Shown: one piece after another, positions 1-25,717 of the stretch
Numbering within the stretch: position 1 is the first letter of the stretch
Layout: every line of letters starts with the position of its first letter
Assembly: GCF_051132245.1 (NCBI RefSeq)
Contig: NZ_CP081184.1
Reading direction: 5' to 3' (one strand)
DNA length: 64,000 nt
Origin: Riemerella anatipestifer
GTDB lineage: Bacteria; Bacteroidota; Bacteroidia; Flavobacteriales; Weeksellaceae
Position numbers and translations under genes: made by a program
Notes under the pieces: model-generated
Told to the model about the DNA's origin: nothing
Database searches by the model: none
The model's input: the letters and a program-made list of their open reading frames with translations, nothing else

Positions 1-3000
1 TTCCGCTTATGGGGGCTCATTTACGGGTGGGCTTAATTATACCAACTCCGTTACACAGAGCCGCATCCAGTTTTTGGATATGAACGGCGACGGCTTGGCA
101 GACCGTGTGGTGTATGGCGATAGCCATACGCTGGTGTATCAGAATTTAGGCAACACTTGGGACACAACGCCTTTGGTTATTCCTAAAGTAGCGGGCAACC
201 CTATTGCCGTAAACCGAGCGATTAGCTACGGGGGCAGTGCCAAGTATTCGGTGTATTTCAAATTTAAGTTCATCAAATTTGGCTTCACGGCGGGGGGCTT
301 TGCAGGTAAGAGTACCAGCCGAATGGAGGCGGCGTTTATGGATGTGGACGGCGATGGCGATTTAGACTACATCTTGTCCGATGGCGAGGACGACCTCCGT
401 GTGGCGACCTCTAATATACGCCGTACCAATAGGCTTAAAAGCGTTAAAAATGCCACGGGTAGTACCTTCGAGGTTGATTACGAGTGGGTGGCGCCTACTT
501 ACGAAAACCCTAACAGCAAGTGGGTGCTAAGCAAGGTAACCACTTTTGACGGACATCAAGGCGATGGCGAGGACTATACCGTGAGCCGTTTCACCTATAA
601 AGACCCGTACTACGACCGCCGCGAGCGGGAGTTTTATGGGTTTGCCGAAGTAAAGCAGGAACAGCTGAACCCTAAGGACGGCAAGGTGCTAAGAACTTCC
701 GTGCAGCACTATTATAACAGGGATTACTTCCGCAAATCGTTGGCGAAAAACAGCTATACCTTAGACGCCCAAGGGCGAAAACTCACCGAAAGCACCGTGC
801 AGTATCAGATTAAAAACGCCCGTACCAATACCGATTGGGAGGCGGAGCGTTTGGCACTGCCTGAAAGCGATGCCATTTCGGTCTTTATTGCCCCTACGGA
901 AACCACCGAACGCCAATACGAGGGGTCGGGGTATTTGGAGCACAAAATCGCCCAAAGCTACGATGCTAAGGGGAACATCACCACTTATCAAGACTTTGGC
1001 ACGGGCAATCCCAACTCGGCACTCAAAGCCGAAATCACTTACTACGAGAGCGAAATCCCTTACTTTGGGGGCATTGCCAAGAGCATCACGGTTCACGATG
1101 CCAACGGTTTGGTACGGAAACGCGAGGCGGACATCAACCCGCAAACGGCAGAAACCACCCAAATCCGCAACTATTTTTCGGCAGACCGCTACGCCCGCAC
1201 CGACTTGTCTTACGATGCGTACGGCAACCTTGCCCAAATCACAGGGGCGGAGAACCACAAAGGGGAGCGTTCCAGCCTTCGCTATGAATACGACAACGAA
1301 ACGCACAGCCACCTGACGAAAATTACCGACCATTTCGGCTACGAAACCCGCACGGCGTACGACTACCGCTTTAACGCTCCGTTGGAAGTGACCGACCGCA
1401 ACGGGGAGCAGCTGCACTATACCATAGACGCTAAGGGGCGTACCACGCACATTTTGGCGCCTAAAGAAGCAGCGGCGGGCGTGCCTTATACGGTGGCTTA
1501 CGACTATTATCCGGAAGCCAAAGTGCCTTACGCCAAAACGAGAAACTACGATACCGAGCACGGCAAAGACATCATCACTTATACCTATACCGACGGCTTA
1601 GGGCGTACGCTGCAAGTCAAGAAAACGGCGGCACTGTTCCAAGGGAAAAACCAAGCCGATGCCGAGCGCCTCATCGTATCGGGCAAACAAGTGTACGATG
1701 CTTTGGGTCGGGTGGTAGAGAGCTATTATCCCACCACCGAAACGCCAAGCGAGGCGTTCAGCACCCAAGCGTCCACGGTAACGCCTACCACTACGGCTTA
1801 CGACGAGAAAGACCGCCCAATATTGCAGACCCTTCCCGATGGCAGCACGGTAGCCACGGCTTATGAGGTGTCGGAAACAGCAGGCACCAAGACCCTTAAA
1901 ACCACCGTAACCGATGCGTTGGGCAGGGTGTCCCATAGTGCCACCGATGTTTTGGGCAGAACGCTGAAACAAGTGCAGCCTACGGGGATAGAAACCACCT
2001 ACCACTACAACGCCCAAGGCGAACTCCTAAAAGTAACCGATGCCGAAGGACACCAGACCCTAAGCGAGTACGACCTTTTGGGGCGTCGCACCCAACTCAC
2101 GCACCCCGATGCGGGCATCACCACATTGGCGTACGATGCGGCGGGCAACCTTATTCGCCGTCAGACCGCCCAAATTCGGGAGCAGATGCCCGATGCGGCG
2201 ATAGAATACCACTACGACCACAACCGCTTGCAGGAAATCCGCTACCCTAAGCACCCGGAGAACAATGTCCGTTACCATTACGGTAAGCAGAGCGAGAGCC
2301 CTCGCCGTCGGGGACGCTTGTGGTTGGTGGAGGACGCCAGCGGCGGTACCGAGTATTTCTACGGCAGTATGGGCGAGGTTGAAAAAGAAATCCGCTCGCT
2401 ACGCATCACGCCGACGGAGGTGCACACCTACATCACCGAATACGGGTACGACAGCTTTAACCGTATCCAAACGATGACTTACCCCGATGGTGAAGTCTTG
2501 GACTTTGGTTACAATCGGGCAGGGCAACTCACCACCCTCACGGGTAAAAAGGGCAATTACGAATACACCTACCTTAAACAACAAGGGTACGATGAGTTTG
2601 AGCAGAAAGTGTATCGCCAGTACGGCAACGGCACCGAAACCCGTTATACTTACGACCCTACAATGAGGCGTTTGGCGACACTCAACACCCAAAATACCAA
2701 ACGAACCTTTCAAGACAACCGCTATACTTACGATTTGGTGGGGAACATCTTGCAGGTGGAGAACCAAGTCCCAATCGTGAATTACGCTTTGGGTGGAGCA
2801 AGTAGCTATCAATACCAATACGACGAGCTTAACCGTCTGATAAGTGCCACAGGAACTTACACAGGTGAGGCGACTTCTGCGGAGTACCAGCTCCAAATGC
2901 AGTATAATAAGCTCAACGGTATTGTTCAAAAATCCTTAATCCACAAGCAAAACGGTAAGGATAAAGGCTATGTGCTGGATTATGTTTATGACAATAAGTC

Positions 3001-4720
3001 CCACCCCCACGCCCTAAGCGAACTTAAAGATTCTACTACACCGAAGCCAAGGGCTTACGAGTACGATGGCAATGGTAATCCTATCTCTTACGAGGGCTTT
3101 AAGGACTTTAGAGTAATGGTATGGGACGAGGAGAACAGACTGCAAGGTTTAAACGACAATGGCAAACTCCACCTTTACACTTACGACCACACAGGCGAAA
3201 GAGCCGTAAAAAGTAGTGCGGAAAGTCAGAAGACTGTTATCAATGGGGTAAGTTCCGCCGTCATCGTTCACGCGGAGAATTATACGGCGTACATTAACCC
3301 TTATTTTGTAGTTAATAAGGGTAAGTTTACCAAGCATTATTTTGAAGGTACAAGCCGTATTGTTTCTAAGTTAGGGGAAGGTACATTTCATCAGCCGACG
3401 GGCTTAACCGCTGGCGGTATAGACTACATTAAGCAAAGTGCGAAAGTTCAAGAGGCGATTGACAGTTACATTAGAGGTCTGAATGTCCCACCAGGTCCGC
3501 CAACCCAGCACGGTATATACGGCACACCTGACTTTACAGGTGTAGAATATCCGTCGATTGACTGGAGTGATATATCTCAAGACCAAGAGCCACCAGAGGG
3601 TTGGCCAAGACCGCCGAAGTTTAACGAGCCGGGTGATGTGCCGGGTCCACCAGTACAATACGGCGACCCCGTGAAACCCGATAATGTGAAAGGTGGGTTT
3701 GGTTATGTGGATAATGGGATAGAAGAGAAAAACTTGTATTTCTATCACCCTGACCACTTAGGTAGCAGTAGTTACATTACAGACAAAGACGGGAACATCA
3801 ATCAACATACGGAATATATGGCGTTTGGCGAAATTCTGTTTGACGAGCATAAAGTGAGCAGAAGAATGCCGTATCTTTTCAATGGTAAGGAGTTAGATAG
3901 TGAGACAGGGTTGTATTATTATGGGGCGAGGTATTATGATCCAAGAGTAAGTTTGTGGCTGAATGTAGACCCGTTAGTAGAAAAAACAATGCAACCGTAT
4001 GCTTATACTAATAATAATCCTATAATGTTGATAGATCCTGATGGTAGGGCAGCAATGCCTCCAGATGATCATTTTGATCATAATGGGAAGTTTTTATACA
4101 CAGATAACAGAAAAACAAATAATATTATCATTCATGTACCGTATATTAGAGATAATTCAAATGTTTTTCAAAGTATATCAAATAGTCTCTTTGGAACCAA
4201 ATATGGAATAGAAAAAGGAATAAATCAAGTACAGTTGAAGGATTATAAATTTAATAATGTAAAGGATTTTGCTTTATTAAATAATATAGCAAAGCACTAT
4301 GCCAAAGATGCTGATGTAGATGTTAAGAAACTATATAATGGTAATTTTTCTGTGGGAGCGTTTAATAATGTTACAGGTGTAGGATTGGCACTCTCGGGAA
4401 AAAAGATTGGTTTTAATGGTGGTGAGTTTTGGGGGATGACACAAGAAGGAGCAATTCCAATGATGCATACGGATGGAAATAAGGTTGTCATTGATATTTA
4501 TAATAACCGTATAGCGGATATTTTTTTGAATGATAAATATAACTTTATTAGTGTTTTAGGTCATGAAGGAAGTTCAAAAGGACACTTAGGTTTACCAAAT
4601 GCAAAGCATAGTACAATTTACGAAAATCAAAAACAAAGACCTCTTTTTAAGTATACAACACCAGAGTTTAAAGAGCATGTTGAAAATAATATTAAATATT
4701 ATAAAAGCAATGGAGATTAG
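1..4720 (+). CDS. Rhs/YD-repeat polymorphic toxin, 5'-truncated by window edge. The reading frame is open back to base 2. It has an N-terminal FG-GAP/SpvB-like segment, many YD repeats and an RHS core ending ...YYGARYYDPRVSLWLNVDPL...NNNPIMLIDPDGR. A ~215-aa variable C-terminal toxin domain follows (CT-1, nt ~4075-4720)
   Basis: 1548-aa ORF with repeated YDxxGN/YxYDxxG motifs and the canonical Rhs core terminus PxxxxDPxGL. The core-encoding DNA is visibly GC-rich and the CT-encoding DNA is AT-rich, as in other Rhs genes. Confidence 0.9.
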   Translation, partial: SAYGGSFTGGLNYTNSVTQSRIQFLDMNGDGLADRVVYGDSHTLVYQNLGNTWDTTPLVIPKVAGNPIAVNRAISYGGSAKYSVYFKFKFIKFGFTAGGFAGKSTSRMEAAFMDVDGDGDLDYILSDGEDDLRVATSNIRRTNRLKSVKNATGSTFEVDYEWVAPTYENPNSKWVLSKVTTFDGHQGDGEDYTVSRFTYKDPYYDRREREFYGFAEVKQEQLNPKDGKVLRTSVQHYYNRDYFRKSLAKNSYTLDAQGRKLTESTVQYQIKNARTNTDWEAERLALPESDAISVFIAPTETTERQYEGSGYLEHKIAQSYDAKGNITTYQDFGTGNPNSALKAEITYYESEIPYFGGIAKSITVHDANGLVRKREADINPQTAETTQIRNYFSADRYARTDLSYDAYGNLAQITGAENHKGERSSLRYEYDNETHSHLTKITDHFGYETRTAYDYRFNAPLEVTDRNGEQLHYTIDAKGRTTHILAPKEAAAGVPYTVAYDYYPEAKVPYAKTRNYDTEHGKDIITYTYTDGLGRTLQVKKTAALFQGKNQADAERLIVSGKQVYDALGRVVESYYPTTETPSEAFSTQASTVTPTTTAYDEKDRPILQTLPDGSTVATAYEVSETAGTKTLKTTVTDALGRVSHSATDVLGRTLKQVQPTGIETTYHYNAQGELLKVTDAEGHQTLSEYDLLGRRTQLTHPDAGITTLAYDAAGNLIRRQTAQIREQMPDAAIEYHYDHNRLQEIRYPKHPENNVRYHYGKQSESPRRRGRLWLVEDASGGTEYFYGSMGEVEKEIRSLRITPTEVHTYITEYGYDSFNRIQTMTYPDGEVLDFGYNRAGQLTTLTGKKGNYEYTYLKQQGYDEFEQKVYRQYGNGTETRYTYDPTMRRLATLNTQNTKRTFQDNRYTYDLVGNILQVENQVPIVNYALGGASSYQYQYDELNRLISATGTYTGEATSAEYQLQMQYNKLNGIVQKSLIHKQNGKDKGYVLDYVYDNKSHPHALSELKDSTTPKPRAYEYDGNGNPISYEGFKDFRVMVWDEENRLQGLNDNGKLHLYTYDHTGERAVKSSAESQKTVINGVSSAVIVHAENYTAYINPYFVVNKGKFTKHYFEGTSRIVSKLGEGTFHQPTGLTAGGIDYIKQSAKVQEAIDSYIRGLNVPPGPPTQHGIYGTPDFTGVEYPSIDWSDISQDQEPPEGWPRPPKFNEPGDVPGPPVQYGDPVKPDNVKGGFGYVDNGIEEKNLYFYHPDHLGSSSYITDKDGNINQHTEYMAFGEILFDEHKVSRRMPYLFNGKELDSETGLYYYGARYYDPRVSLWLNVDPLVEKTMQPYAYTNNNPIMLIDPDGRAAMPPDDHFDHNGKFLYTDNRKTNNIIIHVPYIRDNSNVFQSISNSLFGTKYGIEKGINQVQLKDYKFNNVKDFALLNNIAKHYAKDADVDVKKLYNGNFSVGAFNNVTGVGLALSGKKIGFNGGEFWGMTQEGAIPMMHTDGNKVVIDIYNNRIADIFLNDKYNFISVLGHEGSSKGHLGLPNAKHSTIYENQKQRPLFKYTTPEFKEHVENNIKYYKSNGD

Positions 4721-5144
4721 ATATTTTATTATGATTGTGTTTGTAAGTATTATATTGGTAGGGTGTAATTTTAAGAAAGCCCCCATTATAAAACAACAAG
4801 AACTTTTGTACAATCATTCAGAAACAGATGGTAATTGCAAAATTATACTGAAAACCGTACTCGAAATAAATGAAAATAGAAATAAATATTTTTTAGTTTT
4901 AGACAATAATAAAATAGAACTTACTCATAGTCGTAAAGTTCATGATGGAGTAGAGTATATGGTTAGTCTTAAAATAAAAGAGGCTATATGTGAAGATAGC
5001 ATGTTTGTTCATAAAATCAAAAATAGTATTATAACGGATTTAAAAAATGAAAAGATAAGTAAAAGTAAAAACTATAAATTTGATGTAAGGTCTACAGTAT
5101 GGATAGGAAATGATGAAGAAAAACCGTATATAAATTTTAAGTAG
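4712..5144 (+). CDS. Candidate immunity protein for CT-1. Small lipoprotein-like protein (LVGC lipobox); its ATG overlaps the rhs stop (ATGGAGATTAG)
   Basis: AT-rich small ORF immediately 3' of the toxin domain with start/stop overlap, the usual toxin-immunity layout. Signal peptide with Cys. Confidence 0.5.
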
Positions 5145-5203: not shown

Positions 5204-6199
5204 TTGTTATCCAGAGGAGAGGTTCTTTTAAATATTGGTTTAGACAAAGACGGTAACATTAGCCAACACACAGAGTATATCGCCTTTGGCGAGGTGCTGT
5301 TTGATGAGCATAAAGTAAGCCGACGAATGCCGTATCTTTTCAATGGTAAGGAGTTAGATAGTGAGACAGGACTATACTACTATGGAGCGAGGTATTACGA
5401 CCCGAGAGTAAGTTTGTGGCTGAATGTAGACCCGTTAGTAGAAAAAACAATGCAACCGTATGCTTATACGAATAATAACCCTATAATGTTGATAGACCCA
5501 ACGGGTATGGAGGCAGAGGATTGTCCTACTTGTCCAAAACCAGAGAGAGCGGAGCAAACTTTTAGGGTAAATAATAACACCTATGTTGCGACCCCTGCAC
5601 AAGAAAATTCTAATAATTTAGAGTGGGTAAAGCAGAGAGATATAGAAGGCGTAACGCTAACAAGAAACAAGGCAGATGAAAATATAAGAGCAGCAAGGTT
5701 GCGTTTAAGCCAAGCCATAGCTAATAGTCCTGCGGCTAAGTCTGTGGAACGATTTGAGAAAGGTTTAGCAATAGCAACGGGAGGTGTTATTTTAGTCCCG
5801 CTACTACCTTATGCGGTAAGTACTGGTTCTACTTCTGTATTAGCGACTAAAGCAGGTATTAGTATAGGTACACAGGTAATGGTCAGCCAAGATGTAAATT
5901 TGGTAAAGTTGGGAGCAGATACATTCTTAACTCCTTTAGCGGGTACTTTGGTTGGTAATTCATCAAACTTGAGTGCAAAACAATTAATAAATCAACGGTA
6001 TGAAAGTGCTTTTTCAATGTCCTCAAAGCAAGAGTTATTTGTTGGGGTAAGTACTGATTTGGTTTTTATGGGGCGTAATAATTTATATAAAAGAGCAGGT
6101 CTTCCAATAGTAGGGAATACTATAATTGAAGTACAATCCGAAATACTTTCACAAGAAATATCAAAACATATTCAAATAAAATTAAATAATGGAAAATAG
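5204..6199 (+). CDS. Orphan Rhs C-terminal fragment. It has only the last ~100 aa of the RHS core (DKDGNISQHTEY...DPTGMEAEDCPTCPKP) plus a distinct Gly/Ala-rich hydrophobic CT (CT-2)
   Basis: Homology to main rhs residues ~1240-1335 starts at nt ~5237. Different C-terminal domain. No YD-repeat body. Confidence 0.7.
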   Translation: MLSRGEVLLNIGLDKDGNISQHTEYIAFGEVLFDEHKVSRRMPYLFNGKELDSETGLYYYGARYYDPRVSLWLNVDPLVEKTMQPYAYTNNNPIMLIDPTGMEAEDCPTCPKPERAEQTFRVNNNTYVATPAQENSNNLEWVKQRDIEGVTLTRNKADENIRAARLRLSQAIANSPAAKSVERFEKGLAIATGGVILVPLLPYAVSTGSTSVLATKAGISIGTQVMVSQDVNLVKLGADTFLTPLAGTLVGNSSNLSAKQLINQRYESAFSMSSKQELFVGVSTDLVFMGRNNLYKRAGLPIVGNTIIEVQSEILSQEISKHIQIKLNNGK

Positions 6200-6593
6200 T
6201 AAGAAGAATACAGTATTGTTTATATCTTTTGTTATAATTATTACGACTACTGTTTTTACATATCGAAAATTTGTTTTGTTGCCAAATTTTGCCTTAAATG
6301 GAAAATATACGATAGGGGTTGTTGATAAAGTTGAGATGAGTATGAAGGGAAGTATATATAACATATATTTCAAGTATAAAGTTGGAGATATTCTATATTA
6401 TTCTAACAGTTCTCATAAAGTATCAGGTAATCCTAAGAAGATTTACGGGAAAAAGTTTATGGTAAATTACTTAGATGATAACAAAGAAAAATCGGAGATT
6501 ATATTGAGTATTCCTATCCCTGATAGTATAAAATCCGCTCCTGCTGAGGGTTGGAAAGAATTACCAGAATGGGCAAAGAAGGAGAAGAAGTAA
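6189..6593 (+). CDS. Candidate immunity protein for CT-2 (N-terminal TM helix)
   Basis: AT-rich ORF overlapping the orphan-CT stop. Followed by a partial boundary motif at 6598. Confidence 0.45.
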   Translation: MENSKKNTVLFISFVIIITTTVFTYRKFVLLPNFALNGKYTIGVVDKVEMSMKGSIYNIYFKYKVGDILYYSNSSHKVSGNPKKIYGKKFMVNYLDDNKEKSEIILSIPIPDSIKSAPAEGWKELPEWAKKEKK

Positions 6594-6597: not shown

Positions 6598-6735
6598 TTA
6601 AAGTTAGTGATGCTTATCTCCTATTCACTGCATCAGCCTTGCGTAAAATTTCCATCGAGATGGAAATTTTCCTCCATCGAGATGGAGATTTTTTTCCATC
6701 GAGGAGGAAAAAAGTTTGGGGCGGAGAAGAAATTT
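6598..6735. repeat. Palindromic REP/MITE-like element family A, copy 1 (core AAAATTTCCATC-GA-GATGGAAATTTT). Its 5' end carries a partial cassette-boundary motif (AAGTTAGTGATGCTTATCTCCTATTCACTGCATCAG)
   Basis: Same element at 25718-25850 and 45343-45412, with core CTCGCGTAAAATTTCC-N8-GGAAATTTTACGCGAG. Confidence 0.7.
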
Positions 6736-6775
6736 TGTTAGCTTTGGATAGTAATAATTTTTTAATTGTAATGTT

Positions 6776-14935: not shown

Positions 14936-14944
14936 CTAAAATAA

Positions 14945-16491: not shown

Positions 16492-16493
16492 AT

Positions 16494-16709: not shown

Positions 16710-16744
16710 TAGGTCGTATATCAAACTATGTAATAATAAAATAA

Positions 16745-18240: not shown

Positions 18241-18241
18241 T

Positions 18242-19280: not shown

Positions 19281-19304
19281 GGTTGCGTATCAGAGTTAGT
19301 GATG
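19281..19304 (+). repeat. Cassette-boundary motif (GGTTGCGTATCAGAGTTAGTGATG)
   Basis: Directly after the immunity stop. Confidence 0.8.
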
Positions 19305-19311
19305 TAAAAAC

Positions 19312-19448
19312 GTTAAAAAATGTACTGTCAAACTGTCATAAAAAGTAAAAATAAGTTTCGGGGTTGTATCGGAGTTCTCTCGAAGAGATCTCGAACCTAC
19401 CCCGAAGCGGTACGCAGTAAAAAAAGACTGCCAAAATGGCAAAAAGGC
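19312..19448 (+). repeat. Conserved cassette leader, variant B. The central 40 nt are replaced by ATCGGAGTTCTCTCGAAGAGATCTCGAACCTACCCCGAAGCG; same length and frame as variant A
   Basis: Flanks identical to variant A; the middle matches the 12290-12366 element. Confidence 0.8.
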
Positions 19449-20921
19449 AAGTTTACCAAGCATTATTTTGAAGGCACAAGCCGTATTGTTTCTAAGTTAG
19501 GGGAAGGAACTTTCCACCAACCAAGTGGACTAATGGCAGGAGGAATTGATTATGTGAAACAATCCGCAAAAGTGCAGGAAGCCATAGACCAATACATCAA
19601 AGGATTAAACATTCCGCCAGGTCCGCCAACGCAACACGGCGTATACGGCACACCTGACTTTACAGGGCAGGAGTACCCAAGTATAGATTGGTCAGACATT
19701 AGCCAAGACCAAGAGCCACCCGAAGGGTGGCCAAGACCGCCTAAGTTTAACGAACCGGGAGATGTACCGGGTCCTCCAGTGCAATACGGTGACCCAGTGA
19801 AACCCGAAACGGTAGAGGGCGGATTTGGATTTAAGGATAATGGCGTGGAGGAAAAGAATTTATACTACTATCACCCTGACCACTTAGGTAGCAGTAGTTA
19901 CATTACAGACAAAGACGGCAACATTAGTCAGCACACAGAGTACATCGCCTTTGGCGAGGTGCTGTTTGACGAGCATAATGTGAGTAGGAGAATGCCGTAT
20001 CTTTTCAATGGTAAGGAGTTGGATAGTGAAACAGGATTGTATTATTACGGTGCGAGGTATTACGACCCAAGAGTGTCTATATTCTTAAATGTAGACCCGT
20101 TAGTAGAAAAAACAATGCAACCATATGCCTATACTAATAATAATCCTATAATGCTAATAGACCCAACGGGAATGGAGGCAGAGGATTGTCCTACTTGCCC
20201 CAAACCGTTATATGAAGGACAAGAGATAAAAGGGAGTGATGGCAAACTGTATGGGGCAGCAAGACAGCAAGGAGATATACATTGGGATGTTCCAACAAAA
20301 CCCCTAGAATGGTTACCGCAAACAAATATTGAAGAAGTTACTTTAACGGGTAAAGCTAAATCATCTTTCACAAGTACAGATACATCTCTGTCAAATTATA
20401 ATTTTCCAGTATCTTCACTTCCAAATGGTAAGGTTGAGATGATGAGTGGTATGTTGGATATAGTTGGAATGCTTCTAGCTAACTCTGAATTGGGGAATAA
20501 ATATATGGTGGGAGTAGCTGGGGTAGCAGCAATAGCACTAACGAAAGGTAAAGCAACAGATGATGTACTAAAAGCTGAAAGTAATTTATGGAAAGTTGGT
20601 AAATATAGTGAATTAAGGGGAACGCAAGTAGGTTTACAAGCACATCATGTTGGGCAGAGTGCATTAATGAAAAAAATGGTAAAAGGTTATAATCATAATT
20701 CAGCACCTTCAATACTTGTTCCTGAAATAGGACATGTTTTTAAGGGGCCATTTGGAAGAATTTCTACATCTACAAAGGGATTAACTACCCCTCGTCAAGT
20801 TTTGGCAAGGGATATTTTTGAATTACGTAGAGTTTATGGTCCACAAGGAATACCTAATACTTCACTACAAAAATTGATTCAAATGAATAAAACAATGTAT
20901 CCTTCATCATTTTCTAAATAA
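19320..20921 (+). CDS. Orphan rhs C-terminal cassette 6. CT-7 contains a QAHHVGQ motif (possible Tox-AHH/HNH-fold nuclease) and shares the DPTGMEAEDCPTCPKP linker with cassette 2
   Basis: Leader plus RHS tail plus distinct CT. An AHH tripeptide with a downstream His (GHVFKG) is consistent with AHH-family HNH nucleases, but this is unproven. Confidence 0.7.
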   Translation: MYCQTVIKSKNKFRGCIGVLSKRSRTYPEAVRSKKRLPKWQKGKFTKHYFEGTSRIVSKLGEGTFHQPSGLMAGGIDYVKQSAKVQEAIDQYIKGLNIPPGPPTQHGVYGTPDFTGQEYPSIDWSDISQDQEPPEGWPRPPKFNEPGDVPGPPVQYGDPVKPETVEGGFGFKDNGVEEKNLYYYHPDHLGSSSYITDKDGNISQHTEYIAFGEVLFDEHNVSRRMPYLFNGKELDSETGLYYYGARYYDPRVSIFLNVDPLVEKTMQPYAYTNNNPIMLIDPTGMEAEDCPTCPKPLYEGQEIKGSDGKLYGAARQQGDIHWDVPTKPLEWLPQTNIEEVTLTGKAKSSFTSTDTSLSNYNFPVSSLPNGKVEMMSGMLDIVGMLLANSELGNKYMVGVAGVAAIALTKGKATDDVLKAESNLWKVGKYSELRGTQVGLQAHHVGQSALMKKMVKGYNHNSAPSILVPEIGHVFKGPFGRISTSTKGLTTPRQVLARDIFELRRVYGPQGIPNTSLQKLIQMNKTMYPSSFSK

Positions 20922-20931
20922 TTTAATTTTT

Positions 20932-21270
20932 ATGACGGCAGAAAAATTTATCAATGGTATTTATAAAGAGTGTGTTACAGATCAATTAAAAATATATGAA
21001 AATTTGCTTGAAAATACACCTAAAGCAACTGATCCGACTTGGATTGATATTATAAATATTTATAAAAATCTTAGTGTTAAGGAGAAAAAGTCTTTTATTG
21101 ATTTTTTAAAAATAGTAGAAGTTAATACAGTTGCCTCTATTTTGAGTATTATAGATGGAGATAAGCCAATAAACAATAACTTTCTAACATTTGAATTAAA
21201 GTCAGAAAGTGGGGAAAATATGAGTGGGGACCTTACGTATAGGTTCTTGGAGAAAGATGATCTTATATAA
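20932..21270 (+). CDS. Candidate immunity protein for CT-7 (112 aa, soluble)
   Basis: 10 nt after the toxin stop; followed by a degenerate tandem boundary motif at 21277-21315. Confidence 0.4.
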   Translation: MTAEKFINGIYKECVTDQLKIYENLLENTPKATDPTWIDIINIYKNLSVKEKKSFIDFLKIVEVNTVASILSIIDGDKPINNNFLTFELKSESGENMSGDLTYRFLEKDDLI

Positions 21271-21324
21271 AAGGAGGTGTATATCATGGTTGGGTGTATA
21301 TCAAAGTCAGTAATGTAAAAACAA

Positions 21325-21458
21325 TTTAAAAAATGTACTGTCAAACTGTCATAAAAAGCAAAAATAAGTTTCGGGGTTTCGTCGGACCTACGACGGAGAC
21401 ACGACGGAGCGATGACGGAGCGGTACGCAGTAAAAAAAGGCTGCCAAAATGGCAAAAA
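21325..21458 (+). repeat. Conserved cassette leader, variant A (copy 3). Here it is fused to a different rhs junction (HPHALSILKD, main-gene residue ~1002)
   Basis: The same leader is joined to a more 5' point of the rhs body. Confidence 0.8.
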
Positions 21459-23171
21459 CACCCACACGCTTTAAGTATCTTAAAAGATACCACCACGCCT
21501 AAACCTCGCACCTATGAGTACGACGGCAATGGTAATCCGATAAGCTACGAGGGCTTTAAGGACTTTAGGGTAATGGTATGGGACGAGGAGAACAGACTGC
21601 AAGGTTTAAACGACAATGGCAAACTCCACCTTTACACTTACGACCACACAGGCGAAAGAGCCGTAAAGAGTAGTGCAGAGAGCCAAAAAACGGTGATTAA
21701 CGGCGTAAGTTCTGCCGTTATCGTTCACGCCGAGAATTACACGGCTTATGTTAATCCTTATTTTGTGGTTAATAAGGGTAAATTTACCAAGCATTACTTT
21801 GAAGGTACAAGCCGTATTGTGTCAAAATTGGGAGAGGGAACATTTCATCAGCCGACAGGTCTAACCGCTGGCGGTATAGACTACATTAAACAGAGTGCGA
21901 AAATACAGGAGGCAATAGATAACTATGTGCGTGGTTTAAATATCCCACCAGGTCCACCAACCCAGCACGGCATTTATGGAACGCCTGATTTTACTGGCGT
22001 AGAATATCCGTCGATTGACTGGAGCGATATATCCCAAGACCAAGAGCCACCTGAAGGGTGGCCACGCCCACCTAAGTTTAACGAGCCGGGCGATGTTCCG
22101 GGTCCGCCAGTACAATACGGCGACCCAGTAAAACCCGATAATGTGAAAGGAGGATTTGGCTATGTAGATAACGGAATAGAGGAAAAGAATTTATACTACT
22201 ATCACCCCGACCACTTGGGTAGCAGTAGCTACATTACAGACAAAGACGGCAACATTAGTCAGCACACAGAGTACATCGCCTTTGGCGAAATTCTGTTTGA
22301 CGAGCATAAAGTGAGCCGACGAATGCCGTATCTTTTCAATGGTAAGGAGTTAGATAGTGAGACAGGGTTGTATTATTATGGAGCAAGGTACTATGACCCA
22401 AGAGTAAGTTTGTGGTTAAATGTAGACCCGTTAGTGTCGGAACCCAATTTTCTTTCTGTTTTAGGAGAAGAAGACATTATAGAAGATAATGGAGGCGGAA
22501 TATTTAATCCAGATAATCTAAGTGTTTATAGCTATTCTCACGATAATCCTGTGATGTTATCTGATCCAGATGGCAGATGCCCTACCTGTTTAGTTGGGGC
22601 AATTGTAGGAGCAGCTACAGACTATGGGATACAAGTTGCGTCAAATTATATAAGTGGTAAAAGAGGTGTTGATGCTTGGACAGATAACATTTCATTATCA
22701 TCAATAGCTTTATCGGCTGCAGAAGGAGCTTTAACACAAGGTGGTAGTGCGTTGAGAAAAGCTGCTGTTTCAACAACAGTAATGATAGCTAAGAATACAA
22801 TAGATATAAATACTACTAAAGGAGTAAGTGTAGAGAAAAATGTTAGGAATATAGCTAAAAATACTATCATAGATGCCTCTGTAGGAGCAACTGTAAAGGG
22901 AATAGGGAATTTAGCTAAGACTAAGGGGTTAAATAAGCTAGCCGATAAGGTACACTTAAATAGTAATAATAAAGCTAAAAACTTTATACAAAAGACAACG
23001 GGGCTAAACTCTAAGCAGTCTAGAGAATTTGCTAAGAAATGGGATGTCAGAGGGGTATCCAAGCAACTAAGAAATGGTATTAACAATATACCGAATAAGA
23101 CATTGGAAAATATGTCAAATTCATATATCAAATATGGTGTAGATAAGTTTAAAGAAAAAACAAATGAATAA
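21333..23171 (+). CDS. Orphan rhs C-terminal cassette 7 (longer rhs tail, ~330 aa of core). CT-8 is a Gly/Ala-rich hydrophobic domain after DPDGRCPTCLVGAIVGAATDYG
   Basis: Leader plus rhs homology from ~21465; distinct CT. Confidence 0.7.
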   Translation: MYCQTVIKSKNKFRGFVGPTTETRRSDDGAVRSKKRLPKWQKHPHALSILKDTTTPKPRTYEYDGNGNPISYEGFKDFRVMVWDEENRLQGLNDNGKLHLYTYDHTGERAVKSSAESQKTVINGVSSAVIVHAENYTAYVNPYFVVNKGKFTKHYFEGTSRIVSKLGEGTFHQPTGLTAGGIDYIKQSAKIQEAIDNYVRGLNIPPGPPTQHGIYGTPDFTGVEYPSIDWSDISQDQEPPEGWPRPPKFNEPGDVPGPPVQYGDPVKPDNVKGGFGYVDNGIEEKNLYYYHPDHLGSSSYITDKDGNISQHTEYIAFGEILFDEHKVSRRMPYLFNGKELDSETGLYYYGARYYDPRVSLWLNVDPLVSEPNFLSVLGEEDIIEDNGGGIFNPDNLSVYSYSHDNPVMLSDPDGRCPTCLVGAIVGAATDYGIQVASNYISGKRGVDAWTDNISLSSIALSAAEGALTQGGSALRKAAVSTTVMIAKNTIDINTTKGVSVEKNVRNIAKNTIIDASVGATVKGIGNLAKTKGLNKLADKVHLNSNNKAKNFIQKTTGLNSKQSREFAKKWDVRGVSKQLRNGINNIPNKTLENMSNSYIKYGVDKFKEKTNE

Positions 23172-23484
23172 AAAATTAAAAATAGGTATTATATTGGTAT
23201 GGCTTATATTTATTAATTATCTCAATAGGGATACATTAATGTATAAGCCTCTTTTGAGCAGTAGTTTTATACAAAAGGAAATAGTACAAGGAAGAATTAT
23301 AAATGAGAAAAACCCTTTGAGAAGAGGTTTTTTAACGGGAGCATTTACATATTCTTATTGTTTTGAGGTAGAGAATATAGTTTATACTAATGATAGCTAC
23401 AATGAAAAATATGAAGTGGGGGATATAGTTTTAGTAGAGTATAGTAAGAAATTTCCTTTTATGAATAGAATAGTGGAAAAATAG
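23164..23484 (+). CDS. Candidate immunity protein 8a (TM anchor plus conserved C-terminal domain)
   Basis: Overlaps the toxin stop. The C-terminal ~60 aa are identical to the next ORF. Confidence 0.45.
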   Translation: MNKKLKIGIILVWLIFINYLNRDTLMYKPLLSSSFIQKEIVQGRIINEKNPLRRGFLTGAFTYSYCFEVENIVYTNDSYNEKYEVGDIVLVEYSKKFPFMNRIVEK

Positions 23485-23503
23485 AGGTTATAAAGGATAA
23501 CAG

Positions 23504-23815
23504 ATGAATAATAAGGGTAAAATAAAGCTATTAGCATTGATCTTAATATTATTAGTTTTATTCAAAGAGATTGTGGTATACAAACCTATTTTAAATTTTT
23601 TTCCAACAAATAAAAAAGAAGGAAGAATTATAAATGAGAAAAATTATCTAAGAAGGGGATTTTTAACAGGGGCATTTACATATTCTTATTGTTTTGAAGT
23701 AGAGAATATAGTTTATACTAATGATAGTTATAATGAAAAATATGAAGTGGGAGATATAGTTTTAGTAGAGTATAGTAAGAAATTTCCTTTTATGAATAGA
23801 ATAGTAGAAAAATAG
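23504..23815 (+). CDS. Candidate immunity protein 8b, tandem paralogue of 23164-23484
   Basis: Identical C-terminal sequence GRIINEKN..KFPFMNRIVEK; divergent N-terminal TM segment. Confidence 0.45.
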   Translation: MNNKGKIKLLALILILLVLFKEIVVYKPILNFFPTNKKEGRIINEKNYLRRGFLTGAFTYSYCFEVENIVYTNDSYNEKYEVGDIVLVEYSKKFPFMNRIVEK

Positions 23816-23866
23816 GTCGTGTATCAAAGTTGGTCGTGTATCAAAGTTAGTGATGATGATGATTTA
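23815..23866 (+). repeat. Tandem double copy of the cassette-boundary motif (GGTCGTGTATCAAAGTT GGTCGTGTATCAAAGTTAGTGATGATGATGATTTAGG)
   Basis: Terminal copy of the array, immediately before the IS1-family transposase region; a further copy at 23989-24012. Confidence 0.75.
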
Positions 23867-23972
23867 GGTTATTAAGTGTTTGGTTGTTAGAGGTGATGTT
23901 ATTGTAGATAAGTCTTAAAAGATGAATGATAGATATATTAGAGTAACAAAAAAGTGATAAAAAAGGAGATAA

Positions 23973-24695
23973 ATGATAGAAATTAAGACCTCGTGTATCA
24001 AAGTTAGTGATACCAAGATGTGTCCCCATTGTTTATCAAAAAAAATTATTAAAAATGGACGCACCAAGACCTTAAAACAACAGTATTACTGTAAGGAGTG
24101 TTATCGTCGTTTTATAGATTATTATACCTATCATGCTTATCATTCAGAGATTAACCGCAAAATAGTGATCTATACAAAAGAGGGTTTGGGGATTCGTTCT
24201 ATAGCGAGGGTATTAGGTATATCTGCTACCACTGTACTGAAAAGACTTTTGGCTATAGCTAAAGCATTGTCTTCTCCTTTGATAGCCTACGGAAAGGAAT
24301 ATGAGGTAGATGAGATTTGTAGTTATGTGAGGCATAAAGGAAATAAAATTTGGATTACTTATGCTATGGAGCGTGATAGTGGAAATGTGGTGAGTTTTAA
24401 CATTGGTAGGCGAACTAAAACCACTTTGTCAAAAGTAATTACCACATTGCTTTATAGCCGTCCAAAGCGTATCTATACAGATGGTTTACATCATTACCGC
24501 TACTTGATTCCTCAAAATATACATAAGGTTTCCCGCTATGGCACTAATAAAATAGAACGATTGAACCTAACCTTGAGAACTAAACTAAGGCGTCTAAATA
24601 GGAGAACGATTTGTTTTAGTAAGAGTCTTTGTATGTTTATGGCGATAATGAAAATGATAAGGTTTATAGAATCAGAAGTATTTATTAATAAATAA
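23973..24695 (+). mobile_element. IS1-family transposase gene (fused InsA-like zinc finger/HTH plus InsB-like DDE domain; probable start MCPHCLSKK at 24018). Element termini not identified
   Basis: CPHC...CKEC zinc finger; the C-terminus NKIERLNLTLRTKLRRLNRRTICFSKSLCMFMAIMKMI closely resembles the IS1 InsB C-terminus ([24 protein letters not shown]...). Confidence 0.7.
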
Positions 24696-25171
24696 TGAGA
24701 AATAAAATAATTAACATATTAGTTATAGCTATAGCTTTTATGGATTATATGTTACATCTTAATTTTTTGGTTTTGACTAATGTTATATATCTTAAGATCC
24801 TTTTATTTAGTGCTGTAATAAGTCTGTTATTACTATTCCTTTTAAGAATAAGATGGCAAAAACTCATTAAAATCTTTTTTTTAGTAGGAATTAGTGGCTA
24901 CTTTATACATTTTTCTTTCCTATATATAAAAGCTAAAAATTATAAAGTTTTTAAAGAAATAGTACCATTGAATGGTTATTATACGAGGAGAATTAATGGA
25001 GTTTTATTTACATTCAGAAATAAGAATTTTGATAGACCTATAAGTAAAATTAGTAGTAAAATATTAGAAAATGATATTTTAAAAAAATATGAATTGGAGT
25101 TGAAATTAGTAGAAGTTGGTGATGATGTTTACTTTATATCTACGAAAAATATAGTTCTTAAACGAAATTAG
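24695..25171 (+). CDS. Hypothetical membrane protein (3-4 TM helices)
   Basis: ORF with hydrophobic N-terminal half; may be an orphan immunity gene or IS cargo. Confidence 0.3.
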   Translation: MRNKIINILVIAIAFMDYMLHLNFLVLTNVIYLKILLFSAVISLLLLFLLRIRWQKLIKIFFLVGISGYFIHFSFLYIKAKNYKVFKEIVPLNGYYTRRINGVLFTFRNKNFDRPISKISSKILENDILKKYELELKLVEVGDDVYFISTKNIVLKRN

Positions 25172-25243
25172 ATATATGAAAAAAATAAATTTATTATTTC
25201 AGTTTTTGAAGTAGGAAATATGAAGGAAAATAATAACATATAG

Positions 25244-25699
25244 TTGGTAATTATGGATATTGAAAACTTAAATGAATTAAAAGTACTTGTTAATAGTAAG
25301 AATGTAAATAATTTTGTTGATGAGTATGGAAGGAATCTACTTCAAAATGCAATTATAGACAATCCTATGGCAATTGATTTTTTAATTGAGGTAGGTATAG
25401 ATATAAATCATATTGATTCTAATAAACAAAATGCTTTACACTTTTGTGCTGAATATGCTAATTATGAATTAGCAGAATTACTTCTTAAGAAAGGTATATA
25501 TAAAAATCAAAAAGATATTTATGGTAATACTCCTATGTGGAGAGCCGTTTTCAATGCAGATGGAGAATACAGCTTGGTGAAATTGTTAAAAAAATATGAT
25601 TGTGATTTTTTATCAAAAAATAATAATAATAAGTCTCCATTAGATTTTGCGATACAAATTGGTGATAACGAATTGCAAAATATTTTATTGAGGAATTAA
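25244..25699 (+). CDS. Ankyrin-repeat protein (three or more ANK repeats), possibly an orphan Imm-Ank-type immunity protein
   Basis: NALHFCAEYANYELAELLLKKG / GNTPMWRAV ankyrin consensus; located at the end of the polymorphic-toxin array. Confidence 0.6.
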   Translation: MVIMDIENLNELKVLVNSKNVNNFVDEYGRNLLQNAIIDNPMAIDFLIEVGIDINHIDSNKQNALHFCAEYANYELAELLLKKGIYKNQKDIYGNTPMWRAVFNADGEYSLVKLLKKYDCDFLSKNNNNKSPLDFAIQIGDNELQNILLRN

Positions 25700-25717
25700 A
25701 TAGATTAAATCGTGATG

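What the first reader, a model, noticed from the sequence alone, without database searches (positions are those of the whole stretch)
1..25700. Rhs polymorphic-toxin locus with eight different C-terminal toxin domains in 25 kb
Most of the locus is made of displaced rhs pieces. There is one main rhs gene, two multi-kb 5'-truncated duplicates and five short orphan C-terminal cassettes. Each carries a different CT and is followed by one or two AT-rich candidate immunity genes. The duplicated core DNA is nearly identical: 1264-4050 matches 7356-10130 and 2633-4000 matches 12419-13760. This gives long homology tracts for swapping a new CT into the main gene. Orphan CT-immunity arrays of this kind are known from Enterobacteria and Serratia. 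An eight-module array with this organisation in a flavobacterial genome is a good target for toxin discovery, because none of the eight CTs has an obvious classified fold.
Basis: partly seen in the sequence, partly recalled or inferred. Interest (0 to 1): 0.7.

Follow-up and report, generated by a model that had tools for sequence, protein, structure and literature searches.

The report
Swappable Rhs toxin-tip array in Riemerella
This is a real but largely ordinary bacterial weapon locus: one big Rhs toxin gene of the duck pathogen Riemerella anatipestifer followed by seven spare toxin-tip/antidote modules that strains and even species swap by recombination. The unexpected detail is that every module boundary carries an end-repeat of an IS1-type jumping gene.

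Summary
Window 1-23,830 is the 3' half of a ~3,040-aa SpvB/TcdB-type Rhs gene of Riemerella anatipestifer plus seven 5'-truncated rhs fragments. There are eight different C-terminal tips, each followed by 1-2 AT-rich ORFs.

Corrections:
- The core duplicates are mosaic, not nearly identical (90% and 85% overall; 94-100% only over the first 1.5 kb).
- CT1 is a classified toxin (Pfam Tox-MPTase2). CT7 is a probable HNH/AHH-type nuclease. Six tips have no sequence match to a known family.

Strain comparison shows the predicted tip switching. Three different tips sit on the orthologous main gene in different strains, and one strain's main tip is another strain's orphan. Blocks 100% identical (distal core, tip, immunity gene, head of the next module) lie between 54-90% flanks. 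One block is shared with a Bergeyella species. The mechanism is classical C-terminal displacement by homologous recombination, plausibly fed by natural competence.

New here: each module starts, right after the preceding immunity gene, with a 24-nt box that is an IS1-family terminal repeat. The box is usually followed by a conserved ~150-nt leader giving an in-frame ATG. This head is shared by two unrelated Rhs families and four or more Weeksellaceae species. An IS1 transposase gene caps the array. Its role (expression signal or recombination site) is unresolved.

The parts
2..4720 (+). 3' 1,572 codons of the main rhs gene. The 5' half lies outside the window. It has FG-GAP and TcdB_toxin_midN domains, RHS/YD repeats and Rhs_assc_core. 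The tip CT1 (4046-4720) is Tox-MPTase2.
   Evidence: Orthologues of 3,033-3,045 aa carry a signal peptide and an SpvB domain. Identity to the L001/L002 main genes is 96-100% up to ~2550, then 80-90%.
4710..5144 (+). imm1, an immunity candidate and predicted lipoprotein (MEIRYFIMIVFVSIILVGC...). It overlaps the main gene's stop codon.
   Evidence: CT1 plus imm1 is 99-100% identical to Bergeyella sp. RCAD1439 contig L014.
5157..5180 (+). IS1-type box GGTCGTGTATCAGAGTTAGTGATG at the boundary between module 1 and module 2.
5204..6593 (+). Orphan 2 (5204-6199). Core homology starts at 5242 and CT2 spans 5507-6199, with a Gly/Ala-rich hydrophobic segment. imm2 (6189-6593) has an N-terminal TM helix. 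A box-like sequence at 6591-6611 has 3 mismatches.
6651..6746 (+). Hairpin repeats (TCCATCGAGATGGA, three copies, 6651-6710), followed by a canonical Bacteroidetes promoter: TTG at 6716 and TAGCTTTG at 6739-6746, 37 nt before the HU-HIG gene.
   Evidence: The same upstream region also heads two orphans of a second rhs array (L010).
6776..7153 (+). HU-HIG family HU-like gene, ending 7 nt upstream of the first long rhs copy.
   Evidence: PF18291, E 2e-32; TIGR01201. HU-HIG fragments also occur in arrays L012 and L015.
7160..11620 (+). Long copy 1 (7160-10834). Core homology starts at 7353 and CT3 spans 10142-10834. It is followed by imm3a (10852-11214) and imm3b (11255-11620, weak Imm63). Both lack signal peptides.
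   Evidence: This stretch is 100% identical to Logan contig L006.
11728..12367 (+). p185, a conserved 185-aa gene (11728-12285), followed by a half-leader (12295-12367) with variant-B 11-mers and the palindrome.
12451..14911 (+). Long copy 2 (12451-14532). Core homology starts at 12416 and CT4 spans 13900-14532, with an HEVKH motif. imm4 (about 14492/14522-14911) is a predicted lipoprotein.
14912..16709 (+). Head element (box plus leader, 14912-15078). Orphan 5 (14953-16491) has CT5 at 15811-16491. imm5 (16494-16709) is a 71-aa protein with two TM helices.
16710..19279 (+). Head element (16710-16877). Orphan 6 (16753-18240) has CT6 at 17605-18240. imm6 (18242-19279) is a 345-aa lipoprotein with a BNR-like motif.
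19281..21270 (+). Head element, variant B (19281-19445). Orphan 7 (19320-20921) has CT7 at 20172-20921 with an AHH...GH motif. imm7 (20932-21270) is predicted cytoplasmic.
   Evidence: Positions ~19,960-21,800 are 100% identical to L002.
21298..23815 (+). Head element (21298-21458), joined to the core at a different point (core 3002). Orphan 8 (21333-23171) has CT8 at 22575-23171, Gly/Ala-rich. Duplicated immunity candidates lie at 23164-23484 and 23504-23815; their 3' 197 nt are 93% identical.
23815..24695 (+). IS1-family element left end and transposase. A 17-nt partial box is followed by the full box (23815-23855). A second box lies at 23989-24012, directly before the CPHC zinc ribbon. The transposase ORF spans 23973-24695. 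No inverted right repeat was found.
24695..25699 (+). A strain-specific 158-aa membrane ORF (24695-25171) and an ankyrin-repeat ORF (25244-25699), both 22-25% GC. They are possible orphan immunity genes.
25735..25788 (.). A 23-nt-arm palindrome marking the end of the variable region. It lies between the array and the convergent DUF3686 ATPase gene (26088-30899, minus strand).

Best explanation
WHAT IT IS
The region is the distal half of a chromosomal Rhs (YD-repeat) polymorphic toxin gene of Riemerella anatipestifer. It belongs to the signal-peptide/SpvB/TcdB-mid/RHS class. Downstream is an array of seven displaced, 5'-truncated rhs fragments. Each fragment keeps part of the distal core, its own toxin tip and its own downstream immunity-candidate gene(s).

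SHOWN
- The array is reshuffled by homologous recombination with crossovers inside the shared distal ~1.5 kb of core. This is C-terminal displacement.
- The unit that moves is distal core + tip + immunity gene + head of the next module.
- This unit is exchanged between strains and with at least one other species.
- Different strains carry different tips on the orthologous main gene.

INFERRED
- DNA enters by natural transformation. R. anatipestifer and R. columbina are naturally competent.
- The main gene delivers whichever tip is attached. Displaced modules are kept mainly because their immunity genes protect against kin that still fire that tip, and they also serve as a reservoir of tips.
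- Immunity-candidate localisation suggests the toxin targets. Lipoproteins follow CT1, CT4 and CT6. Membrane proteins follow CT2, CT5 and CT8. Cytoplasmic proteins follow CT3 and CT7. This points to periplasmic, membrane and cytoplasmic targets respectively. CT1 is a metallopeptidase and CT7 a probable HNH-type nuclease.

MODULE HEADS
- Shown: every module boundary begins with a 24-nt IS1-family terminal repeat ('box'), placed 0-27 nt after the preceding immunity gene.
- Shown: four orphans then have a conserved ~150-nt leader that supplies an ATG in frame with the rhs fragment.
- Shown: the two long copies are instead headed by an HU-HIG gene with a canonical promoter and by a conserved 185-aa gene.
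- Inferred, moderate confidence: these heads provide the transcription and translation starts that keep orphan tip/immunity pairs expressed, and they add flanking homology.
- Open: whether the IS1 transposase acts on the boxes.
For: FAMILY
- PF05593 RHS_repeat E 5e-27, TcdB_toxin_midN E 1.4e-21 and Tox-MPTase2 E 1.9e-11.
- TIGR03696 is present in all eight copies, and YD_repeat_2x is present.
- SpvB is present in the orthologues.
- The GC pattern is core 42-50%, tips 28-37%, immunity candidates 20-30%.

ORGANISM
-.

TIP SWITCHING
- Three different main-gene tips exist in different strains, and one main tip is an orphan in another strain.
- The main genes are orthologous: 96-100% identical up to ~2550, 80-90% in the distal core, and unrelated in the tip.

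RECOMBINATION BLOCKS
- W ~19,960-21,800 is 100% identical to L002, with 54-90% flanks on both sides, both inside the core.
- W ~3,950-5,200 is 99-100% identical to Bergeyella L014, with 69-91% flanks.
- The core shows mosaic identity.

COMPETENCE
- PMC8383284 and PMC7965970.

INTACT ORFs
- All eight rhs ORFs and all downstream ORFs are open.

HEADS
- The leader is in frame at three different junction types.
- It also occurs in a second, unrelated rhs family (L010).
- It is conserved in R. columbina, Bergeyella and a Weeksellaceae genome.
- A canonical TTG...TAnnTTTG promoter precedes HU-HIG, and the same region heads orphans in L010.
- Stop/start overlaps between tip and immunity ORFs suggest translational coupling.

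BOX = IS1 TERMINAL REPEAT
- The box is 15-18/23 identical to the E. coli IS1 terminal repeats. These are themselves 18/23 identical to each other. 57 of 200,000 shuffles reach 15/23, and none reach 18/23.
- The same double box lies upstream of an unlinked 59%-identical IS1 transposase gene on plasmid pRCAD0416RA-1.
Against: - No tip has been shown to be toxic, and no downstream ORF has been shown to protect. Only one weak Imm63 hit was found, at 23.5 bits, below the cut-off.
- No delivery system is identified. No PAAR, VgrG or T6SS genes lie in the window, and no TcA-like gene was seen.
- The leader has no recognisable Bacteroidetes -33/-7 promoter of its own, so its promoter role is unsupported. 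Only the in-frame ATG is observed.
- One copy (L015) has an 11-nt deletion that breaks the frame. Several orphans in other strains are truncated.
- The order of modules rests on one assembly. Short-read assemblies of relatives break in this array.
Confidence: 0.8

Rival explanations
1. IS1-dependent cassette system. The directly repeated IS1-type boxes at each module boundary are working sites for the IS1-family transposase encoded at the end of the array. Modules would be captured, excised or deleted by transposase action at these ends. This would resemble IS26 translocatable units or an integron array, with homologous recombination only secondary.
For: - The box is a bona fide IS1-family terminal repeat.
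- Its left edge is sharp. Pairwise identity is 0.31 upstream and 0.73-0.95 inside, over 22 distinct junctions.
- At least five unrelated sequence classes follow the box: the leader, the orphan-2 type, p185, the IS1 body and others.
- It sits 0-27 nt after each of the unrelated immunity genes.
- The transposase gene caps the array in four R. anatipestifer genomes. Its left repeat abuts four different sequences, once inside an rhs ORF (L016). This is the signature of IS1-type adjacent deletions.
- Partial tandem duplications of the box occur at 23815-23848 and near 5145 and 21280.
Against: - All ~40 boxes have one orientation and no inverted partner exists, so no canonical transposable unit can be drawn.
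- The transposase gene lacks a detectable right repeat. Its 3' end differs between strains, so it may be defective.
- The demonstrated exchange blocks break inside the rhs core, not at the boxes.
- Arrays in Bergeyella, R. columbina and Weeksellaceae were seen without an adjacent transposase gene in the 4-8 kb held.
- No conservative site-specific activity is known for IS1 transposases (own knowledge).
Confidence: 0.2
2. Graveyard. The orphans are inert relics of past displacement events. Neither the fragments nor their heads have a present function, and the conserved head is simply inherited with the duplicated unit.
For: - Orphans in related strains include truncated or frameshifted copies: 125 aa and 76 aa ORFs, and the out-of-frame L015 leader.
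- Two of the three leader/core junction types are shared across genera. They therefore arose rarely and were propagated.
- No covariation supports an RNA structure in the leader.
Against: - All eight rhs ORFs and eleven downstream ORFs in this window are intact.
- Orphan modules are 100% conserved between strains while their surroundings diverge.
- The leader is better conserved across genera (~88-94%) than the adjoining core (68-82%). It also serves a second, unrelated rhs family.
Confidence: 0.15
3. Host-directed Tc-like toxin. The SpvB/TcdB-mid/RHS protein is a fused TcB-TcC cocoon that delivers tips into duck cells, not into bacteria.
For: - The architecture matches TcB/TcC. TcdB_toxin_midN is present in the window and SpvB in the orthologue.
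- The organism is a pathogen.
Against: - Every tip has its own adjacent small gene, inherited with it as a block.
- Three of these are lipoproteins and three are membrane proteins, as expected for self-protection against antibacterial toxins.
- No TcA-like gene was seen next to the orthologues.
- Zhang et al. classify this architecture, with Tox-MPTase2, as a polymorphic toxin class of Bacteroidetes (PMC3482391).
Confidence: 0.08

Closest known systems
Enterobacterial rhs loci with orphan rhs-CT/rhsI modules (C-terminal displacement: Jackson 2009; Koskiniemi 2014, PMC3967940; Starsta 2020, PMC7043789)
   Same: - One full-length rhs gene is followed by 5'-truncated fragments with different tips and cognate downstream genes.
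- The core is GC-rich and the tips AT-rich.
- Recombination occurs in the shared core.
- Orphans can be re-recruited to the main gene.
   Different: - The phylum is different (Bacteroidota, Weeksellaceae).
- The N-terminal class is different: signal peptide plus SpvB/TcdB-mid, not PAAR/VgrG-linked.
- The array is longer (7 orphans here, at least 11 in GCA_034096495).
- Orphans carry a conserved head (IS1-type box plus an in-frame leader). I did not find this described for enterobacterial orphans.
Snodgrassella alvi / Gilliamella T6SS Rhs arrays (Steele 2017, PMC5727410)
   Same: - Large arrays of orphan Rhs tips with linked immunity genes.
- Many orphans are intact and expressed.
- Tips are shared between strains.
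   Different: - Those arrays are T6SS-associated, and no T6SS context is visible here.
- No IS-derived boundary element is reported there.
Bacteroidetes TcdB/TcaC-type RHS polymorphic toxins with Tox-MPTase2 (Zhang et al. 2012, PMC3482391)
   Same: - The architecture is the same: SpvB, beta-propeller, RHS, then a C-terminal toxin.
- The CT1 family is the same. Tox-MPTase2 is listed there as Bacteroidetes-specific, with TcdB/TcaC export and RHS repeats.
   Different: - That survey describes proteins and stand-alone cassettes in general.
- It does not describe this array organisation, the head element or strain-level switching.
IS26 translocatable units, integron cassette arrays and Bacteroidales rAID-1 orphan-immunity arrays (functional analogies only; the rAID-1 comparison is from my own knowledge of Ross et al. 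2019)
   Same: - Co-oriented cassettes are separated by a short conserved mobile-element-derived site.
- A recombination enzyme gene sits at one end of the array.
   Different: - There is no tyrosine recombinase and no attC-like site.
- Only single IS1 left-end repeats are reiterated, not whole IS copies.
- The observed exchange breakpoints lie in the rhs core, not at the box.

Membership tests
Rhs / YD-repeat polymorphic toxin | RHS/YD repeats forming the shell | tested here: met
   PF05593 E 5e-27 in the main gene and 5e-23 in long copy 1. TIGR01643 is present.
Rhs / YD-repeat polymorphic toxin | RHS repeat-associated core domain (the DPxG-type motif region) immediately before a variable C-terminal domain | tested here: met
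   TIGR03696 scores 50-80 bits (cut-off 32.5) in the five window copies tested and in the L002 main gene. The motif ...NPIMLIDP[DTN]G precedes each tip in all eight copies.
Rhs / YD-repeat polymorphic toxin | Polymorphic C-terminal toxin domain | tested here: met
   The eight tips are mutually unrelated. CT1 is Tox-MPTase2. CT7 has the conserved AHH...GH...D pattern and weak Tox-SHH matches. Toxicity itself was not tested.
Rhs / YD-repeat polymorphic toxin | Cognate immunity gene directly downstream that neutralises the tip | tested here: inconclusive
   One or two intact small ORFs follow every tip. Tip and ORF are inherited as one 99.9-100% identical block. Only one weak Imm63 hit was found. 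Neutralisation cannot be tested here.
Orphan array formed by C-terminal displacement | 5'-truncated rhs fragments retaining distal core homology to the main gene | tested here: met
   Self-BLAST shows the seven fragments match core positions from 1257, 2628, 3002, 3317 (three fragments) and 3781 onwards.
Orphan array formed by C-terminal displacement | Different tips on the orthologous main gene in different strains, and the same tip as main in one strain and orphan in another | tested here: met
Orphan array formed by C-terminal displacement | Recombination breakpoints inside the conserved core | tested here: met
   Identity steps from 54-90% to 100% at W ~19,960 and ~21,800, and at ~3,950 and ~5,200.
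T6SS-delivered Rhs effector | PAAR or VgrG linkage and a T6SS gene neighbourhood | tested here: not met
   No PAAR or VgrG domain in the window protein or in the full-length orthologue L002. No T6SS genes in the 64-kb window. The rest of the genome was not examined.
Tc-toxin TcB/TcC-like (SpvB-TcdB-RHS) | SpvB and TcdB middle/N domains N-terminal to the RHS shell | tested here: met
   TcdB_toxin_midN E 1.4e-21 in the window. SpvB is present in the orthologues.
Tc-toxin TcB/TcC-like (SpvB-TcdB-RHS) | A TcA pentamer partner | not tested
   None is seen next to the orthologue L002, whose upstream gene is DUF8202 + Por_Secre_tail. The genome was not searched.
IS1-family insertion sequence | DDE_Tnp_IS1 transposase with an N-terminal zinc ribbon | tested here: met
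   PF03400 E 1e-22. NF033558 E 3.8e-49, 167 bits against a cut-off of 100.
IS1-family insertion sequence | ~23-bp terminal repeat of the GGT...CAA.TTA.TGAT type at the left end | tested here: met
   The box is 15-18/23 identical to E. coli IS1A IRL/IRR. It occupies the same position in an unlinked Riemerella IS1 copy.
IS1-family insertion sequence | An inverted copy of the repeat at the right end, and a target-site duplication | tested here: not met
   No inverted box with up to 4 mismatches in the window or the array loci. None with up to 8 mismatches in the plasmid IS1 locus L028, and no terminal inverted repeat in a local alignment of the window's IS1 flanks.
Integron | IntI tyrosine recombinase and attC sites | tested here: not met
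   No recombinase domain in any ORF of the window. The box is not an imperfect palindrome.

The most novel reading that the evidence does not exclude
The reiterated, co-oriented IS1 left-end repeats that sit right after each immunity gene are functional sites. Together with the IS1-family transposase gene that caps the array, they would form a transposase-driven capture, excision and deletion system for toxin/immunity cassettes. The system would be shared by two unrelated Rhs families and several Weeksellaceae genera. It would be a DDE-transposase counterpart of an integron or of IS26 translocatable units, dedicated to interbacterial weapons. Alternatively, the boxes could be InsA-controlled promoters that put the whole orphan arsenal under IS1 regulation.
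Probability: 0.18. Interest if true: 0.85.

Novelty: new variant of a known kind. Interest (0 to 1): 0.52.

Why it matters
- The locus gives a clean natural record of tip switching in a Rhs system outside the Proteobacteria. It shows exact exchange blocks, including one shared between species. The host is a naturally competent poultry pathogen, so the process can be reproduced in the laboratory.
- Six tips have no match to any known family. CT6 has a confident all-alpha model with no toxin-like structural neighbour and only seven known relatives. Their immunity partners already hint at the target compartment.
- The IS1-derived box and in-frame leader at every module boundary have not been described for Rhs arrays, as far as my literature searches show. 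They suggest how displaced modules stay expressed, or how they are assembled. This turns the question of how orphan arrays are built and kept alive into testable experiments.

Tried and rejected
- RNA gene or riboswitch in the leader. Rfam gave no hit at gathering thresholds over the whole window, and only noise at E 1.7-7.8 on the leader. No tRNA or tmRNA was found.
- Conserved RNA structure in the leader. Variant A folds stably (z -3.2 to -4.0), but variant B folds differently (z -4.5). Natural T/C variation at the ATG-proximal stem is uncompensated, and RNAalifold found 1 compensatory pair out of 35. Not supported.
- Leader as the 5' end of the main gene. Rejected: the main gene starts with an unrelated signal peptide.
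- Leader as a remnant of the IS1 body or of p185. Only the 24-29-nt box aligns with the IS1 region, and only the 3' 36 nt aligns with the p185 downstream region.
- Wider distribution of the leader. The metagenome scan returned four chance matches only.
- DNA-uptake sequence idea for the ACGACGGAG 11-mers. In the window they are enriched only inside the leaders.
- Integron-like recombinase. None in the window.
- PADLOC. No defence-system assignment for p185, HU-HIG or the neighbouring DUF3686 cluster.
- Sequence search of CT2-CT8 against the PDB. Nothing found.
- p185 structure. The model is good (pLDDT 83), but only generic Ig-like matches were found.
- The afdb50 fold library was unavailable.
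- Assembly artefact. Independent Logan contigs from SRR15412410 reproduce CT3-imm3-p185 and IS1-o158-ank exactly. Short reads cannot confirm the module order.


Full report
1. WHAT IS IN THE SEQUENCE

All genes from 1 to 25,699 are on the + strand.

- An rhs ORF is open from the window edge to 4720. Orthologues in related genomes are 3,033-3,045 aa. They have a signal peptide and SpvB, FG-GAP, TcdB_toxin_midN and RHS repeats. The window therefore holds only the distal 1,572 codons.
- Seven further rhs-derived ORFs follow: 5204-6199, 7160-10834, 12451-14532, 14953-16491, 16753-18240, 19320-20921 and 21333-23171.
- Self-BLAST shows they match the main core from positions 3781, 1257, 2628, 3317, 3317, 3317 and 3002 onwards.
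- The Rhs_assc_core domain is above cut-off in the five window copies tested, and the core-end motif precedes the tip in all eight.
- The eight tips are unrelated to one another, except for a ~70-85-aa linker shared by CT2, CT3 and CT7.
- Each tip is followed by one or two intact ORFs of 20-30% GC. The tips are 28-37% GC, the core 42-50% and the surrounding genome 36-38%.
- The array ends at ~23,830. An IS1-family transposase gene follows (23973-24695), then a 158-aa membrane ORF and an ankyrin ORF. A strong palindrome (25735-25788) closes the region.
- Next come a convergent DUF3686 ATPase/PspA/CesT cluster and housekeeping genes (LigA, TonB receptor, Kup, Fur, LptD-like, GldB). There are no recombinase genes and no T6SS genes.

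- The layout, the counts and the repeat coordinates are right.
- 'Nearly identical' is not right. 1257-4054 against 7353-10150 is 90.1% identical, and 2628-3960 against 12416-13748 is 84.6%.
- Identity is mosaic. It is 94-100% over the first ~1.5 kb of the main/copy-1 match, then alternates between 64% and 97%. The longest exact run is 146 nt.
- 'No classified fold' fails for CT1, which is Pfam Tox-MPTase2 at E 1.9e-11, above the cut-off. Zhang et al. list that family as Bacteroidetes-specific and linked to TcdB/TcaC-type RHS proteins (PMC3482391).
- CT7 belongs to a family of 48 short, Rhs-linked Bacteroidetes proteins. They have invariant AHH...GH...D residues and weak Tox-SHH matches in 8 of 27 members. 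It is probably an HNH/EndoVII-type nuclease, but this is below threshold.
- CT4 has an HExxH motif.
- CT2, CT3, CT5, CT6 and CT8 have no Pfam, NCBIfam or PDB sequence match.

3. ORGANISM AND RELATIVES

- The right flank is 99.4% identical to Riemerella anatipestifer NJ-1.
- Exact-protein look-ups brought in the same locus from five other R. anatipestifer assemblies.
- The arrays in these assemblies differ in length and content. One (GCA_034096495) has at least 11 orphans.

4. EVIDENCE FOR THE MECHANISM

- The main genes are orthologous. They are 96-100% identical up to window position ~2550, 80-90% identical in the distal 1.5 kb of core, and unrelated in the tip.
- The distal 1.5 kb is exactly the part reiterated in the orphans.
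- Three different tips sit on the main gene in different strains. The tip on the main gene of GCA_037861555, GCA_034096635 and GCA_037861375 is an orphan in GCA_034096495.
- CT7 plus imm7 is 100% identical between this window and GCA_034096495, although it is headed differently there (p185 gene and a longer core).
- That identical block runs from ~19,960 to ~21,800. It covers the last 200 nt of core, the tip, the immunity gene, the head element and the first ~450 nt of the next orphan's core. Flanks on both sides are 54-90% identical.
- CT1 plus imm1 (~3,950-5,200) is 99-100% identical to a contig of Bergeyella sp. RCAD1439, which represents a different GTDB species. The flanks there are 69-91% identical.
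- These are double crossovers in core homology, that is, classical C-terminal displacement (PMC5727410, PMC3967940).
- R. anatipestifer and R. columbina are naturally competent (PMC8383284, PMC7965970). This gives a plausible entry route, but that step is inferred.

5. IMMUNITY CANDIDATES

- Only imm3b gives a weak Imm63 hit.
- Predicted locations fit a toxin/immunity logic. Lipoproteins follow CT1 (a metallopeptidase), CT4 (HExxH) and CT6. Membrane proteins follow the Gly/Ala-rich CT2 and CT8 and follow CT5. Cytoplasmic proteins follow CT3 and the nuclease-like CT7.
- This is inference. Toxicity and protection are untested.

The leader:
- Four orphans are preceded by a ~170-nt element that is 79-94% identical between copies.
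- From its ATG (MYCQTVIK...RLPKWQ) it reads in frame into the rhs fragment at two different core junctions.
- The same element heads orphans in R. columbina, Bergeyella sp. and a Weeksellaceae genome.
- It also heads orphans of a second, unrelated rhs family in R. anatipestifer NJ-1. There a third junction type is again in frame.
- Across genera it is better conserved than the adjoining core.
- It contains three to four 11-bp repeats in two concerted variants (ACGACGGAG or CTCGAAS) and a TGCCA-N3-TGGCA palindrome.
- Predicted folds are stable but not conserved between the variants, and no RNA family matches.

The box:
- The first 24 nt of the element, GGTCGTGTATCARAGTTAGTGATG, is an IS1-family terminal inverted repeat.
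- It is 15-16/23 identical to E. coli IS1A IRL/IRR. These two are 18/23 identical to each other, and 57 of 200,000 shuffles reach 15.
- The same box occurs twice, 157 nt apart and in direct orientation, in front of the IS1-family transposase gene in this window.
- The same arrangement precedes an unlinked, 59%-identical IS1 gene on R. anatipestifer plasmid pRCAD0416RA-1. Box 1 there is 18/23 identical to IS1 IRR, which no shuffle reaches.
- In the window, a box or a degenerate copy follows seven of the eight modules, 0-27 nt after the immunity gene's stop codon.
- Over 22 distinct junctions, pairwise identity is 0.31 immediately upstream and 0.73-0.95 within the box. At least five unrelated sequence classes follow it.
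- All copies share the array's orientation, and no inverted partner exists.
- The left repeat of the IS1 abuts four different sequences in four strains, once in the middle of an rhs ORF. That pattern resembles IS1 adjacent deletions.

The other heads:
- The two long copies are headed by an HU-HIG gene with a canonical Bacteroidetes promoter (TTG...TAGCTTTG) 37 nt upstream.
- That promoter region, with the first 65 nt of the gene, also heads two orphans of the second array.
- The other head is p185. This gene is 55-72% conserved across Flavobacteriales and lies in variable islands. Its model shows a C-terminal Ig-like domain, and its function is unknown.

7. INTERPRETATION

Firm:
- This is an Rhs C-terminal-displacement array that is being reshuffled by homologous recombination within and between species.

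Moderate:
- The heads supply start signals that keep orphan tip/immunity pairs expressed. The evidence is the in-frame ATG at three junction types, the captured promoter, and stop/start overlaps between tip and immunity ORFs.
- The heads also add flanking homology.

Open:
- Whether the IS1 transposase acts on the reiterated boxes.
- The demonstrated breakpoints lie in the core, not at the boxes, which argues against a transposase-only model.
- The sharp box boundaries next to many unrelated immunity genes are not fully explained by homologous exchange alone.

8. NOVELTY AND SCORE

- The kind of locus is well known, and so is the protein class.
- New here are the lineage, the explicit cross-species block exchange, six unclassified tips, and the IS1-derived box and leader at module boundaries.
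- Searches of the paper library found nothing on R. anatipestifer Rhs loci. The HU-HIG paper reports almost no conserved gene linkage for that family (PMC5499826).
- I rate it a new variant of a known kind, with interest ~0.5.

Noticed in passing
window 61931-62262: A tandem array with a 63-bp unit in 4.9 copies (92% matches) and a 21-bp sub-period in ~16 copies. It overlaps only short mechanical ORFs on both strands (61893-62297 region). The function is unknown.
   Followed up: partly
window 38517-38681: An 83-bp unit repeated twice (95% identical), in the gap between a 197-aa ORF and the TonB-dependent receptor gene.
   Followed up: no
window 26088-34928 (minus strand): A conserved cluster directly abuts the array in all R. 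anatipestifer strains seen. It consists of a 1,603-aa DUF3686/DUF7902/AAA ATPase, a 670-aa and a 217-aa protein without Pfam hits, PspA/IM30 and CesT_Tir_1. PADLOC gave no defence-system match.
   Followed up: partly
window 6651-6710 and 25735-25816: Related 22-nt palindromic units (TCCATCGAGATGGA... / CGCGTAAAATTTCC...) occur upstream of HU-HIG and at the array's end. They look REP-like or terminator-like. The 6633-6670 stretch also matches 25749-25786 in inverted orientation.
   Followed up: partly
window 11728-12285; loci L021, L023, L024: The 185-aa gene belongs to an unnamed family (410 hits, 55-72% identity across Riemerella, Capnocytophaga, Chryseobacterium, Flavobacterium and Tannerella). 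It sits as a solitary gene in variable islands next to immunity-like or defence genes (SMI1_KNR4, DRT-like RT, repeated small ORFs). It occurs up to three times in one rhs array.
   Followed up: partly
window 14990-15045 and equivalents in each leader: Three to four head-to-tail 11-bp units occur in two concerted variants (nnACGACGGAG or nnnnCTCGAAS). Both variants are conserved across genera. One Weeksellaceae copy lacks exactly one unit. The one-helical-turn spacing suggests a protein-binding array, but no binding partner is identified.
   Followed up: partly
window 24695-25699: A 158-aa multi-TM ORF and an ankyrin-repeat ORF (22-25% GC) lie after the IS1 gene. They are present in this strain only, while other strains have 260-350 nt of different sequence there. 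They may be orphan immunity genes cut off from their toxin.
   Followed up: partly
window 46909-47394: A 161-aa protein with a barnase-type Ribonuclease domain (PF00545, E 3e-15). It lies next to a porin gene and faces a 189-aa ORF without Pfam hits on the opposite strand. It may be another secreted toxin with an inhibitor.
   Followed up: no
window 23164-23815: The immunity candidate of CT8 is duplicated in tandem (106 and 103 aa). The copies have different N-terminal TM segments, and their last 197 nt are 93% identical.
   Followed up: no
locus L010 (R. anatipestifer NJ-1 NODE_22): A second rhs family (HYTDHLGNVRLSY-type core) has its own orphan array, and it uses the same IS1-box/leader and HU-HIG-promoter heads. 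One of its tips shares the N-terminal linker of the window's CT3 and then diverges, giving a mosaic tip.
   Followed up: partly
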